A stretch of 64,000 bases of DNA from Felis catus (lineage: Eukaryota): the NCBI RefSeq assembly GCF_018350175.1, contig NC_058383.1:38688001-38752000 (forward strand). Reading direction: 5' to 3'. Position numbers and translations under genes: made by a program. Position 1 is the first letter of the stretch; every line of letters starts with the position of its first letter. The notes beneath the pieces are model-generated. The model had not been told where the DNA came from and searched no databases. It saw only the letters and a program-made list of their open reading frames with translations. Shown here in pieces: positions 11,264-35,731 of the stretch.

Positions 11264-11929
11264 ATGGCTTCCGCTGGCCTGCAAATCCTGGGGATCATCC
11301 TGACGCTGCTCGGCTGGGTGAACGCCCTGGTNNNNNNNNNNNNNNNNNNNNNNNNNNNNNNNNNNNNNNNNNNNNNNNNNNNNNNNNNNNNNNNNNNNNN
11401 NNNNNNNNNNNNNNNNNNNNNNNNNNNNNNNNNNNNNNNNNNNNNNNNNNNNNNNNNNNNNNNNNNNNNNNTGCTGGCGCTGCCCCAGGACCTGCAGGCC
11501 GCCCGCGCCCTCTGCGTCGTCGCCCTCCTGTTGGCTCTGCTCGGGCTGCTGGTCTACCTCGCGGGAGCCAAGTGTACCACCTGCGTGGAGGACAAGGACT
11601 CCAAGGCCCGTCTGGTGCTTGTCTCTGGGATCATCTTTGTCATCTCGGGTGTCCTGACCCTTATCCCTGTCTGCTGGACCGCCCACACCATCATCCGGGA
11701 CTTCTACAACCCTTTGGTGGCCGAGGCCCAAAAGCGGGAGCTGGGGGCCTCCCTCTACCTGGGCTGGGCAGCCTCTGGTCTTTTATTGCTGGGAGGGGGG
11801 CTGCTGTGCTGCACATGCCCCTCGGGGGGGGCCCGGGGCTCAAACCATTACATGGCCCGATACTCCGCCTCTGCCGCACATGGCACCTCTCAGGGTCCCT
11901 CCGAATACCCCGCTAAGAATTATGTCTAA
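11264..11929 (+). CDS. CLDN6: Claudin-6 (single coding exon; 140-N gap at 11332-11471 over extracellular loop 1)
   Basis: [22 protein letters not shown]...[15 protein letters not shown]...[25 protein letters not shown]...EYPAKNYV* with PDZ-binding YV end; gap keeps the frame; AATAAA at 12531-12536. Confidence 0.95.
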
Positions 11930-13284
11930 TTCCGGTAGGGGAGCGGGGACTCCCTTGACAGCGGAGTCTAACTTCCTGAGCCGGAGACGTGGAGATGGTG
12001 ATCCAGACAGCTTTGGGTGGTTTTTTATCTTTTTTGTGGGGGAGGAGCGGGGGGAGTGGTATTTTTAAAACTCAGTTGGTAACCCGACCAAGAAACTCAG
12101 CATCTCTCTTGGGCTCTGCTGCTGGTGCGTCTCCCCTTTGGATGATGGAGCCAAGGAGGTGATGCTTCACAGTTTCTGGATCTTTCTCCACCCCGGACAT
12201 CCCCATCTCGGAGGCCAACCCACAGCCGCGGGCCAGCGTGAAGGCTGCCTGCTGTTCAGATGCTTGCAGCCTGTCCCCAAGAGTCCCTCCTTAGTGGTGG
12301 GTCCTCTGAACCCCCAGGGGCTCCTGAGCCTCAGGTAGCCCGCCCTTAGAAGAGCGGGCGGTTTAAGTTACCAAAGAACCATCCACCTCCCAAGTGTTCC
12401 GACCTCTGGCTCCTCTACCCTGAGTCCTGCCCCAGCTGTGCCCTAGACCACCTCCCCCGCCCCCCTCTGGCTCACCTTCAGCCCCTGCACGCTTCTGTCA
12501 CGCCCCCCCCGCCCCCCACAGTTTTTGTTAAATAAAGCTCGTCTTATTTTGTCGCTTGCCTTGGGTGTTGCTGGGGGGCTGTTGAGAGCCAGCCCGACAG
12601 GGGGAGAAGGTGGGTGCAAGTGGCTCATCTTTCTCACCCTCACACCTCGAGTGGTGAGTGAAGGTACCCACGGGACACGTCCTGGAGCGGGCCTTGGACT
12701 GACAGTCCCAGGAAGGCCACCCGGTCTTCCCTGCCTGACCACAGATCAGAAGAATCCAAGGTACAAATGCTGTTTATTCCCTACTGGCAGGGGGGAGTAG
12801 AGGGTGGGGTGAGGGGCTGGGCCTCCGGGCCTGAACTCCTGGGTGCAGGTGGTGGCCAGCTGGAGGGGACCCGCTCCAGGGCAGGGATCCCCTCCTCATT
12901 TTGGAACCAAGGAGCTGCTGCCCTTCAGGTGAGGGGCAGGCTCCTGGGGGCAGGGTGGCCTCAGGAAGAGGCGTGCCAGCCGGAGTCCTGGACCAGAAGA
13001 AGACAGATTGTGGTGGGAGGTGGGGGCAGGCCAGCGTCGCTCTGCCTGGGTGGAGGAAACAAGAACGCGTGGGCCCCCCCCGCCCCCGCAGAAAAGGGTC
13101 TGGACTCTTCCGGGCCAGCTGGCCACACCTCTGGAGCCAGACCTGACTGGAGCTTCTGGAGAGCGGGTTTCGCCAAGGGAAGGGGTTGACGTCGGGGGGG
13201 GGGGGGGGGGGGCAAGGGTTGCCACGGGGCATCCGGCACAAAGTCAGGGCTCTGAGCAGCGGGTTTCCGGGGACGCTCTCCGCC

Positions 13285-33700: not shown

Positions 33701-35731
33701 CTCCAAGGTCTAGGAGGGAGACAGAGAAAACCAACCCCCAGAGCCCACCAGTCTCACCTGGCTGGGCTCCCAGGCCATTCCCGTTCCCAAATCCTGGAGG
33801 GACAAATGGAAACAGGGGTGTGAGAAAGGTGGGGAGACAGAGCTGGGGCTGGGCAGGGCCCACCTAGCTTCTGAGGTTGAACATCCCCACTGAAGCCAGG
33901 GGAGACCCAGGGCACAGGTGAGGGACTCCGGATCCCCTTCCTCAGGGTCGCCCAGGACCCCTGCTCCCCCCTGCCGGTCATTCTGAGCAGGCCTATGGGA
34001 ACTCAGCTCCGGTCGGTCCATCCTAAAGAGGGTGGACAGGACCGCTGGTGCACAGGAAGGGGGCCTTGGAGCCCACTCCCCTCTTTCCACTCCCGCAGGC
34101 CCAGAGGACACGCAGTGAGCCGTGCTTGCTCGCCCCGGAGTGGGGCTCAGCGGGGGCAGCACAGGGAAGAAGCAGGGAGAGGAAAGACTGGGGGTGCCCA
34201 GGGCAGGTCCACGGGTGAGATGACACCAGAGCCGTCTTGGTGGATTCCGAGGGGGGAGGGGAACGTGTGCAGCAGGGAAAAGAGAGACCTACACCTGCCA
34301 CAAGGGATCGCTGGTTTGCTTCTCTACCTGGGGGTGGGAGTGGGTGGGGGAATGTGTATGGGGGGGGCGGGGAGGGGGTCAGCACTGTCCCCACATATTC
34401 TGAGGCAGCTGCTTCTCCCAACCCCCAAATCCCATTTGCCCATCTCTCACCTGCTCCCAGGCCACTGGGGGGGCCGTAGCCTGAGTGGAGGAAACAAGAA
34501 GTTGAGCCTGGGGGCCCGGAGGGGCCAAGGGCTCGGGTGCCTCACCCTCGTTCAGAGGACACAGCTGCTCCCACCCTGCCCACCCTCTCAGCCAGCTTTG
34601 CCTGATCTGTAGCCACTGGGGGTCCCTAAGCCTGTGGGTTGAGGAGAAGGAGGCGAACTTAGGAGGGGGCAAAGGTCTGAACCTGAATGCCGGCCCCCCG
34701 CTCGCAAGAGCGGAACCCCTCTCTGGGCCTCAGTTTCCCCTCTGGTCACAGGAGGGGCAAGGACAGAGCCGGGTGAGTAGCCAGCAGCAGGGTCATGGAG
34801 GGAGGGGGCAGATCCCTGCGCCTCCCACAGGGGTGTGTGGGCCTCTACCCTCCACTCGGACTCTGGAGTGTCTCTGGGATGCCTCCCTTCCCCGAAATCT
34901 CATCCTCCTGGCGCCGCACCTCCTAATCTTTCCCTCCTGCAGCTCAGGTGCATCTGGTCTCAGCAGGGACCCCCTTCTCCCACCCGTAAGACCCCACAGG
35001 TTCCTGGAGTGAAGACCCTTCTGTGACACTCTGGCCCCCCTCCCCCCGTCCCTGGGCCCCTTTGTCTTCTCCCCTCTGCCCTGCCTCCAGGCCTTTGCCC
35101 TGTCTTACTGCCAGGATGTGCTTCCCCTTCCCTGTCACAGCTTGCCCCCTTTGAACACCTAGTTCCAACCCCTCCTCTGGGATGTTCTCATGCCCCATCC
35201 CATTCCTGTTCCAAAGGTGTGGGGTGTCTTTGCTCCACACACTTGAGCTGACCATGGACGAGACTGTGTGCTACGAAGACAGGGAGGGACCCTGTGCTCT
35301 CTTGGGGCCCACATCAGGATCTTAGAACTACGTAGGGAACATCTGCGGCTCTCCCCCCAGAGGGCTCCCAGACCCCTGGGGGAGAGACCAGGCCCTCTTC
35401 CTTGACCCCAGTGCCAGGAGGGACTGCTTACCTTTCCCTAGGCCTGGAGACAATGGAGGTAGCCCTGGGGAGCAAGGAGGTGCTGACTCGGGGTGGGGAC
35501 CCCAGAGGTGGAGAGGGAGCAGGACCCAGGCATCCATCCCCTGCCCAGGACAGACTTCACACCCGGACCCCCCTCTCTCCGGAGCCCTAGCATTGGCCCA
35601 GGGCTGTACCTAGGCCCCCCAAACCCAACCTCAGCAACCTCAGCTGCCCGCCTTCCGCCCTCACCGCCTTGCAGGCTTTCAGAAGTCAGGCAGAGCAGGA
35701 AAAGCGCCACGGGGAAGGCCCAGGTGCCCAT
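24745..35731 (-). CDS. GREP1: Glycine-rich extracellular protein 1; secreted, ~37 coding exons, ~538 aa
   Basis: Exons with intact splice sites: 35731-35665 (signal peptide [22 protein letters not shown]), 35464-35432, 34480-34451, 33793-33758, 33422-33390, 33305-33246, 32947-32915, 32808-32755, 32324-32304, 32217-32185, 32100-32059, 31741-31682, 30968-30939, 30864-30832, 30744-30709, 30505-30476, 30392-30360, 29742-29707, 29553-29533, 29354-29325, 29232-29200, 28354-28301, 28148-28116, 28031-27996, 27912-27880 (GC donor), 27769-27734, 27414-27283, 26999-26955, 26643-26602, 26487-26455, 26027-25968, 25888-25859, 25780-25721, 25587-25474, 25207-25163, 25063-25010, 24770-24745 (GHCSLGKC*). Total 1617 nt, all internal exons 3n and phase 1. 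The position between CLDN9 and PKMYT1 matches human GREP1 (formerly LINC00514). The exact exon usage is a prediction. Confidence 0.85.
28450..29170 (+). mobile_element. MER21-like LTR element in a GREP1 intron
   Basis: Characteristic segments 'cccacaggttaagggctcagt', 'ctgacccaccggctagaaat', 'aatttgctagagccgctcacagaactc', 'ttattagaaaggctagaactcagga'. Confidence 0.7.
28868..28936. repeat. Compound (GTC)n(GCC)n trinucleotide microsatellite
   Basis: gtcgtcgtc...gttgtcgtc...gctgccgccgcc... Confidence 0.9.

What the first reader, a model, noticed from the sequence alone, without database searches (positions are those of the whole stretch)
11264..35731. Claudin pair next to an elastin-like gene mirrors the ELN-CLDN3/CLDN4 neighbourhood
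Seen: the convergent intronless-CDS claudin pair CLDN6/CLDN9 lies about 11 kb from the end of GREP1. Established: human ELN lies in the Williams-Beuren region close to the related pair CLDN3/CLDN4. Inference: both blocks could descend from one ancestral segment, making GREP1 a true, highly diverged paralogue of elastin. This would bear on the origin of elastin.
Basis: inference. Interest (0 to 1): 0.7.

Follow-up and report, generated by a model that had tools for sequence, protein, structure and literature searches.

The report
GREP1, elastin's likely hidden sister gene
The known but little-studied secreted protein GREP1 shares elastin's tiny-exon layout, lysine-pair exons and cysteine end, and its neighbouring genes have counterparts near elastin, so it is likely a long-diverged second elastin-family gene that mammals were thought to lack.

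Summary
Observation confirmed: CLDN6 and CLDN9 are convergent, 10.8 kb from the GREP1 stop. In this cat-family genome ELN lies 158 kb from CLDN4.
Block kinship is supported without the claudins: SRRM2's only paralogue hit lies 1.14 Mb from ELN, and neighbours of both genes have paralogues on the CLDN5 contig.
GREP1 and ELN share phase-1 micro-exons, a 33-nt exon ending K-P-x-K-P (in Gly-rich form with a strong acceptor only in these two genes) and a terminal exon with C-x4-C around LGK.
Against: the pairs do not mirror each other (convergent versus divergent, 3' versus 5' of the gene; the tree favours separate tandem duplications). GREP1 lacks RKRK, KA exons and hPG repeats. Profile searches found only mammals (placentals, marsupials) and no elastin.
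Best reading (0.6): GREP1 is a KP-only elastin paralogue from an ancient block duplication, likely cross-linked through its lysine pairs. Frog Eln2 is the untested candidate orthologue. The scan noted the GREP1 gene before on other DNA, not this link; my paper searches found no paper stating it.

The parts
11264..11929 (+). CLDN6 single-exon coding sequence (221 aa, partly masked)
13285..13938 (-). CLDN9 single-exon coding sequence (217 aa, partly masked), convergent with CLDN6
24615..35731 (-). GREP1: exon 1, 35 intact internal phase-1 micro-exons (21-132 nt, median 36) and a terminal exon
35665..35731 (-). GREP1 exon 1: signal-peptide-like 22 codons ending G|G at a phase-1 donor, as ELN exon 1 does
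   Evidence: secretion shown for the human protein in bioRxiv 10.1101/2020.03.10.981001 (passages)
33390..33422 (-). 33-nt KP exon ([11 protein letters not shown]); like exons at 32947-32915, 32217-32185, 30392-30360, 29232-29200
27880..27912 (-). 33-nt KP exon [11 protein letters not shown] with GC donor: 8 of 11 aa and 22 of 33 nt identical to ELN exon 4 (ALGPGGKPPKP), same length and phase
24745..24770 (-). Terminal coding exon [12 protein letters not shown]: C-x4-C, holding the protein's conserved Cys pair; ELN has GGACLGKSCGRKRK
24615..24620 (-). AATAAA polyadenylation signal
29835..32637 (-). Three decayed KP-type exon copies: 32637-32605 (no GT donor), 31844-31813 (32 nt), 29871-29835 (37 nt, in-frame stop)
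1..1439 (+). 3' exons of BICDL2 (name recalled); paralogon anchor, best paralogue at C27:16.24 Mb
57894..58067 (-). KREMEN2 kringle exon (name recalled); paralogon anchor, only paralogue hit at C27:23.61 Mb
46812..47264 (+). Kinase exon of PKMYT1 (name recalled), 5' neighbour of GREP1

Best explanation
GREP1 is likely a true paralogue of elastin, inferred to have arisen when an ancestral vertebrate segment carrying a proto-elastin, a claudin and an SRRM gene was duplicated, and it is predicted to act as a secreted, disordered matrix protein cross-linked through its K-P-Q-K lysine pairs. Shown here: gene structure, shared exon types, paralogous neighbours, conserved lysine pairs and Cys pair. 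[quoted passage not shown] Inferred: common descent, whole-genome-duplication timing, lysyl-oxidase cross-linking and a C-terminal disulfide. GREP1 kept and multiplied only KP exons, lost or never had the RKRK tail, and has polar Asn/Gln spacers instead of Val/Ala, so it would form a more hydrated network than elastin.
For: Best paralogues of KREMEN2, MMP25 and BICDL2 (3 of 3) lie on the CLDN5 contig C27, as do paralogues of the ELN neighbours LIMK1 and STX1A; MMP17-like and STX2-like hits are 0.65 Mb apart. Exons: genome-wide, 9 segments fit a 33-nt acceptor-to-donor pattern ending K-P-x-K-P (reversed control 2); the 6 with a pyrimidine tract of 0.8 or more are 5 GREP1 exons and ELN exon 4. 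Of 38 in-frame matches to the two terminal-exon patterns, 3 have a strong acceptor and an early stop: ELN, GREP1 and one site with no Gly-rich exons in 20 kb. Exon-by-exon best scores beat 300 of 300 within-exon shuffles on the mean and 295 of 300 on the maximum; GREP1 profiles score ELN above 200 of 200 shuffles and 18-39 bits above reversed ELN. KxxK pairs exceed shuffles in 11 of 11 homologues checked (at most 1 of 500 shuffles reached them); 93 of 186 homologue records end in C-x4-C, including both marsupials. KP cross-links dominate in fish and amphibian elastins (PMC8875079, PMC12733013, passages).
Against: No non-mammalian orthologue and no elastin appeared in phmmer over 1.84 billion representatives (76 hits; 20 looked up by name: 19 mammals, 1 unrelated insect repeat), in the 120 listed of 175 profile hits, or in the 32 of 32 hits of 556-2000 aa. 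With HMMER's composition correction the GREP1 profile scores ELN below zero (-93, -104 bits). GREP1 has no KAAK, no hPG motif, no RKRK, GRAVY -0.44 versus +0.62, and none of ELN's miR-29/181-type 3'UTR words. Gene order differs between the blocks. The genome-wide patterns were drawn from the two genes themselves, so their selectivity is post hoc. My exon scan looked only for phase-1 symmetrical exons. Only one genome could be examined.
Confidence: 0.6

Rival explanations
1. Convergence: GREP1 is an unrelated mammalian micro-exon array that grew by tandem exon duplication behind a signal-peptide exon and evolved KP pairs and a terminal Cys pair under like demands; it sits in the paralogous block by chance.
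For: Only therian homologues found; no significant profile score against ELN after composition correction; composition differs (N+Q about 10%, V+A 10-14% versus 34% in ELN); phase-1 arrays after a signal exon arise repeatedly (own knowledge).
Against: It needs three independent coincidences: the same 33-nt exon-terminal KPxKP module, the same C-x4-C/LGK terminal exon and a place in the paralogous block 11 kb from the claudin.
Confidence: 0.25
2. Homologous but younger: GREP1 came from a later single-gene duplication and move of ELN in a tetrapod or early mammal ancestor, not from the block duplication.
For: Detected range is Theria only; the nearest exon match is to mammalian ELN exon 4; order around the gene differs between the blocks; a survey of jawed fish reports one eln gene in all non-teleosts, though it searched by limk1/septin synteny and a basic Cys C-terminus (PMC12733013).
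Against: A moved copy would have to land by chance next to the claudin paralogues; GREP1 shows none of ELN's amniote-wide central conserved region or KA exons, which a young copy should retain.
Confidence: 0.15

Closest known systems
GREP1 (human LINC00514/G029442; mouse 1520401A03Rik)
   Same: This is that gene. Secreted, disordered, Gly-rich, co-purifies with fibronectin and EMILIN2 (bioRxiv 10.1101/2020.03.10.981001, passages); marks the inner annulus fibrosus (PMC13082079, passages).
   Different: The bioRxiv main text has no occurrence of 'elastin' or 'paralog' and compares GREP1 with collagens; no family is assigned. Some database records are auto-named 'elastin-like', others 'fibroin-like' or 'collagen-like'.
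Tropoelastin (ELN), amniote type
   Same: Signal-only exon 1 ending in Gly, all phase-1 exons, alternating cross-link and spacer exons, KP pairs, about 30% Gly, 5% Lys, terminal exon with a C-x4-C pair.
   Different: No KA exons, no hPG repeats, no RKRK, Asn/Gln-rich, a few His/Trp/Met and a third Cys, not next to LIMK1.
Xenopus tropicalis Eln2 (truncated C-terminus; Miao et al. 2009, title only seen) and KP-rich gar, bowfin and bichir elastins
   Same: Eln2 is listed at 570 aa and 37.4% hydrophobic; gar, bowfin, bichir 40.7-43.1% (PMC12733013 Table S1). GREP1 is 427-591 aa and 37-43% by a count that I infer matches theirs.
   Different: The sequence and locus of Eln2 could not be obtained; GREP1 profiles did not retrieve it.
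7q11.23 / 12q24-22q11 / 16p paralogon (SRRM2/3/4, CLDN5-3/4-6/9, KREMEN1/2, MMP17/25, LIMK1/2, STX1A/1B/2)
   Same: Anchors recovered in this genome; SRRM2/3/4 are stated to be whole-genome duplicates.
   Different: The human band names are recalled. No paper found places GREP1 or an elastin paralogue in it.

Membership tests
Tropoelastin (amniote definition, bioRxiv 10.1101/2024.12.03.626628) | Exon 1 holds only the signal peptide plus one Gly | tested here: met
   GREP1 exon 1 ends SLQG|G, ELN exon 1 ends SQPG|G; no signal-peptide predictor was run
Tropoelastin | All exon borders phase 1:1, one domain per exon | tested here: met
   35 of 35 modelled internal exons; the scan sought only such exons, but database proteins and 6 RNA joints agree
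Tropoelastin | Paired-lysine KP cross-link exons alternating with Gly-rich spacers | tested here: met
   8 KxxK, 6 KPxKP; enriched over shuffles in 11 of 11 homologues
Tropoelastin | KA-type cross-link domains | tested here: not met
   0 KAAK versus 6 in ELN; gar, bowfin and bichir elastins are mainly KP too
Tropoelastin | Hydrophobic domains built on hPG/hGG motifs; V and A dominant; no His or Trp | tested here: not met
   hPG 0 versus 34, V+A 13.5% versus 34.3%, GRAVY -0.44 versus +0.62, some H/W/M
Tropoelastin | Terminal exon with the Cys pair | tested here: met
   C-x4-C in both; 93 of 186 homologue records end so; canid records end without it
Tropoelastin | Tetrabasic RKRK end | tested here: not met
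   Stop follows the second Cys
Tropoelastin | [quoted passage not shown] | tested here: not met
   No GREP1 exon pairs with ELN exons of that region among the 12 best exon matches
Tropoelastin | Synteny with LIMK1 | tested here: not met
   LIM-kinase exon hits at C41:10.52, C27:21.75 and C11 (with a stop), none near GREP1
Tropoelastin | miR-29/miR-181 sites in the proximal 3'UTR | tested here: not met
   Three seed words present after the ELN stop are absent from 270 nt of the GREP1 terminal exon
Tropoelastin | Lysyl-oxidase cross-linking, coacervation, elastic recoil | not testable with these tools
   No such data in the passages read; 'lysyl' occurs 0 times in the GREP1 preprint
Whole-genome-duplication paralogue (ohnologue) of ELN | Host blocks share several paralogous neighbours | tested here: met
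   Of 5 GREP1-side families tested, 2 have paralogues within 1.2 Mb of ELN and 4 on C27; 2 of 2 further ELN-side families also map to C27
Ohnologue of ELN | Same local gene order | tested here: not met
   Claudins 3' of GREP1 and convergent; 5' of ELN and divergent
Ohnologue of ELN | Detectable sequence homology of the two proteins | tested here: inconclusive
   Above shuffles and reversal, below zero after composition correction; Atlas ranks an elastin-named cluster second for both queries, 0.92 and 0.91, with a spidroin-like one at 0.91
Ohnologue of ELN | Syntenic orthologues in non-mammalian jawed vertebrates | tested here: inconclusive
   None retrieved by protein search; no non-mammalian genome was available

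The most novel reading that the evidence does not exclude
Mammals carry a second tropoelastin-family gene: GREP1 is the surviving whole-genome duplicate of elastin and the orthologue of frog Eln2. The KP-exon/Cys-tail elastin design then predates the last vertebrate genome doubling, and GREP1 forms a lysyl-oxidase-cross-linked hydrated elastic network in tissues such as the inner annulus fibrosus.
Probability: 0.4. Interest if true: 0.85.

Novelty: new variant of a known kind. Interest (0 to 1): 0.68.

Why it matters
A curated survey of about 80 amniotes found no evidence of more than one tropoelastin gene (bioRxiv 10.1101/2024.12.03.626628, section 3.1), and a fish survey found no eln-like gene near limk1 or septin in jawless fish (PMC12733013), so elastin's origin has no sister gene to date it. 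A real paralogue would set a minimum age, show which parts are ancestral (KP exon, Cys tail) and give GREP1, a breast-cancer dependency gene and spinal-disc marker with no family, a testable biochemical role.

Tried and rejected
1) 'The claudin pair was copied as a pair': not favoured by orientation or by the tree of 7 proteins from one species; a 10-protein tree on the C-terminal halves left the five unresolved. Gene conversion within pairs could hide an older pairing; tails of CLDN3/9 and CLDN4/6 look alike by eye, untested. 2) Non-mammalian GREP1 by protein search: none; 55 of 175 hits were not listed. 3) A short BICDL2 exon found no paralogue; a longer one did. 4) A looser KPxKP-donor pattern gave 18 hits against 8 for the control and is not selective alone; the raw terminal-exon patterns gave 65 and 73 hits and became selective only after frame, acceptor and stop filters. 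5) A third elastin-like copy on C27: no hit of the KP-exon patterns there; the C22 terminal-like site has no Gly-rich exons. 6) Atlas structure search: model pLDDT 0.33, all TM under 0.5, uninformative. No fold or complex job was run, as the protein is disordered. 7) The frog Eln2 paper is not held; supplementary figures with fish elastin sequences are images, and bioRxiv supplements (tropoelastin tables, GREP1 species list) were not seen; they may bear on the C-terminal consensus and on GREP1's range. 8) RNA support covers only the last seven exons; the raw-read run gave no reads.
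Full report
Observation. The window lies at G000:C41:38.69-38.75 Mb of a cat-family genome. Two single-exon claudin ORFs face each other: 11264-11929 (+) and 13285-13938 (-). GREP1 runs on the - strand from 35731 to a stop at 24745, 10.8 kb from the CLDN9 start. My model has exon 1, 35 intact internal exons (median 36 nt, all phase 1) and a terminal exon, plus three decayed KP exon copies. The scan looked only for phase-1 exons, but database proteins reproduce them and contigs of two probable RNA runs show 6 GT-AG joints among the last seven exons. Gene names for unnamed G000 loci are recalled from sequence resemblance.

The elastin side. In the same genome CLDN3 (-) and CLDN4 (+) lie at C41:10.264 and 10.302 Mb, ELN at 10.460-10.490 Mb, LIMK1 at about 10.52 and STX1A at about 10.22. 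I recovered 32 internal ELN exons, the signal exon and the terminal exon; a few exons are missing from that model.

Are the blocks paralogous? I tested five gene families beside GREP1. SRRM2, 102 kb from GREP1, has one paralogue hit, at C41:9.32 Mb, 1.14 Mb from ELN; a review says SRRM2/3/4 came from the two vertebrate genome duplications (PMC10987577, passage). The best paralogues of KREMEN2, MMP25 and BICDL2 are on C27 at 23.6, 1.20 and 16.2 Mb, the contig holding CLDN5 at 28.15 Mb. The ELN neighbours LIMK1 and STX1A also have paralogues on C27, at 21.75 and 1.84 Mb; STX1A's closest one is at C41:17.45 Mb. Rough chance figures are 0.001-0.005 for the SRRM3 placement and 6e-5 to 5e-4 for three of three on C27. 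So three related blocks exist, each with a claudin of one clade (100/100).

CLDN6/9 are convergent, 1.4 kb apart and 3' of GREP1; CLDN3/4 are divergent, 37 kb apart and 5' of ELN. The tree joins CLDN3 with CLDN4 (92/94) and CLDN6 with CLDN9 weakly (51/71); 4+6 is borderline rejected (p-AU 0.047), 3+9 is not (0.075) (one species, CLDN6/9 partly masked). Separate tandem duplications of one ancestral claudin per block fit best, and local rearrangement is needed.

Are GREP1 and ELN homologous? Both open with a signal-only exon ending in G|G and use phase-1 exons throughout. ELN exon 4 (ALGPGGKPPKP, 33 nt) matches GREP1's 33-nt KP exons at up to 8 of 11 residues and 22 of 33 bases. Genome-wide, 9 segments fit that exon shape (control 2); the 6 with a strong pyrimidine tract are 5 GREP1 exons and ELN exon 4, and the other 3 are not Gly-rich. 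The terminal exons read GHCSLGKC and GGACLGKSCGRKRK, both C-x4-C around LGK; of 38 in-frame genome matches 3 have a strong acceptor and early stop: these two and one site with no Gly-rich exons nearby. These patterns were drawn from the two genes, so the tests are post hoc. Exon alignments beat shuffles (mean best 0 of 300 reach it; maximum 5 of 300). GREP1 profiles score ELN above 200 of 200 shuffles and above reversed ELN, but below zero once composition is corrected. The Atlas ranks an elastin-named cluster second for a bat and a wombat query, with a spidroin-like cluster equally close for the wombat: a lead only.

Evidence against. GREP1 has no KAAK, no hPG motif, no RKRK, no match to ELN's central region, none of the ELN 3'UTR seed words, and is polar (GRAVY -0.44 versus +0.62). 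It fails the amniote definition of tropoelastin and should not be filed as one. Homologues were found in placentals and two marsupials and nowhere else: 76 hits (20 named, 19 mammals), 120 of 175 listed, 32 of 32. No elastin was retrieved. Low-complexity proteins are hard for these searches, so the blank is weak, but it is the main gap. On the other hand KP cross-links dominate in fish and amphibian elastins (PMC8875079 and PMC12733013, passages), and GREP1's 37-43% hydrophobic residues (my inferred version of the paper's count) fall in their range; frog Eln2 is listed at 570 aa and 37.4% (Table S1) and has a truncated C-terminus (title only). Its locus is unknown to me.

How it likely works. 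Human GREP1 is secreted, predicted disordered, cleaved, and co-purifies with fibronectin and EMILIN2 (bioRxiv 10.1101/2020.03.10.981001, passages). [quoted passage not shown] KxxK pairs are enriched in 11 of 11 homologues and 93 of 186 records end in C-x4-C (records include isoforms and fragments; canid records lack the Cys end). I infer that lysyl oxidases cross-link the KPQK lysines into a microfibril-associated, hydrated network, that the terminal Cys pair forms a disulfide as in elastin domain 36 (PMC7947355, passages), and that loss of RKRK removes that cell-binding site. The Gln between the lysines could also serve transglutaminases. None of this is shown.

Novelty. The gene is known, and earlier scan notes describe its micro-exon array. 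Paper searches for GREP1, its old names with elastin (86), elastin origin and paralogues, claudin synteny (40) and the two bands (85) gave listings with no paper proposing this link; I read listings and passages, not whole texts, and most Matrix Biology papers are not held. A survey of amniote tropoelastins states that none has a second gene (sections 3 and 5.5 and passages read).

Verdict. Observation confirmed; block paralogy well supported; GREP1-ELN common descent about 0.75 in all (0.6 by block duplication, 0.15 by a later copy), convergence 0.25. Interest 0.68.

Noticed in passing
window about 20722-21400, - strand: A CpG-rich single-exon open frame of 225 codons, Pro/Leu-rich, with no ATG, between GREP1 and CLDN9. 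It is 72-86% identical over about 215 aa to tails fused onto GREP1 in automatic annotations of takin, whales, vole, kangaroo rat and elephant shrew. It may be a conserved non-AUG gene or an alternative last exon of GREP1.
   Followed up: partly
window 32637-32605, 31844-31813, 29871-29835, - strand: Three decayed KP exon copies (lost donor, 32 nt, 37 nt with stop) show continuing exon turnover in GREP1.
   Followed up: partly
window 34631-34602 and 27912-27880, - strand: Two GREP1 exons have GC instead of GT donors; the first is present in hyena and canid protein records but not in the felid ones shown.
   Followed up: no
protein records P0003, P0020-P0024, P0026, P0027, P0059 (canids where named): These GREP1 records end in GYGGP or GYEGP without the Cys pair: possible loss of the terminal motif in canids, or an annotation effect.
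   Followed up: no
G000:C11:119750769-119750924: A LIM-kinase-like match with an in-frame stop, probably a processed pseudogene.
   Followed up: no
L010 (G000:C42:16179444-16179900): The claudin match here is in three overlapping pieces, one with stops and without intron-sized gaps: a frameshifted claudin copy or an assembly error.
   Followed up: no
L046-L049 (G000:C41:38.85-38.89 Mb): Two near-identical serine-protease genes in opposite orientation, a recent inverted duplication in the PRSS cluster.
   Followed up: no
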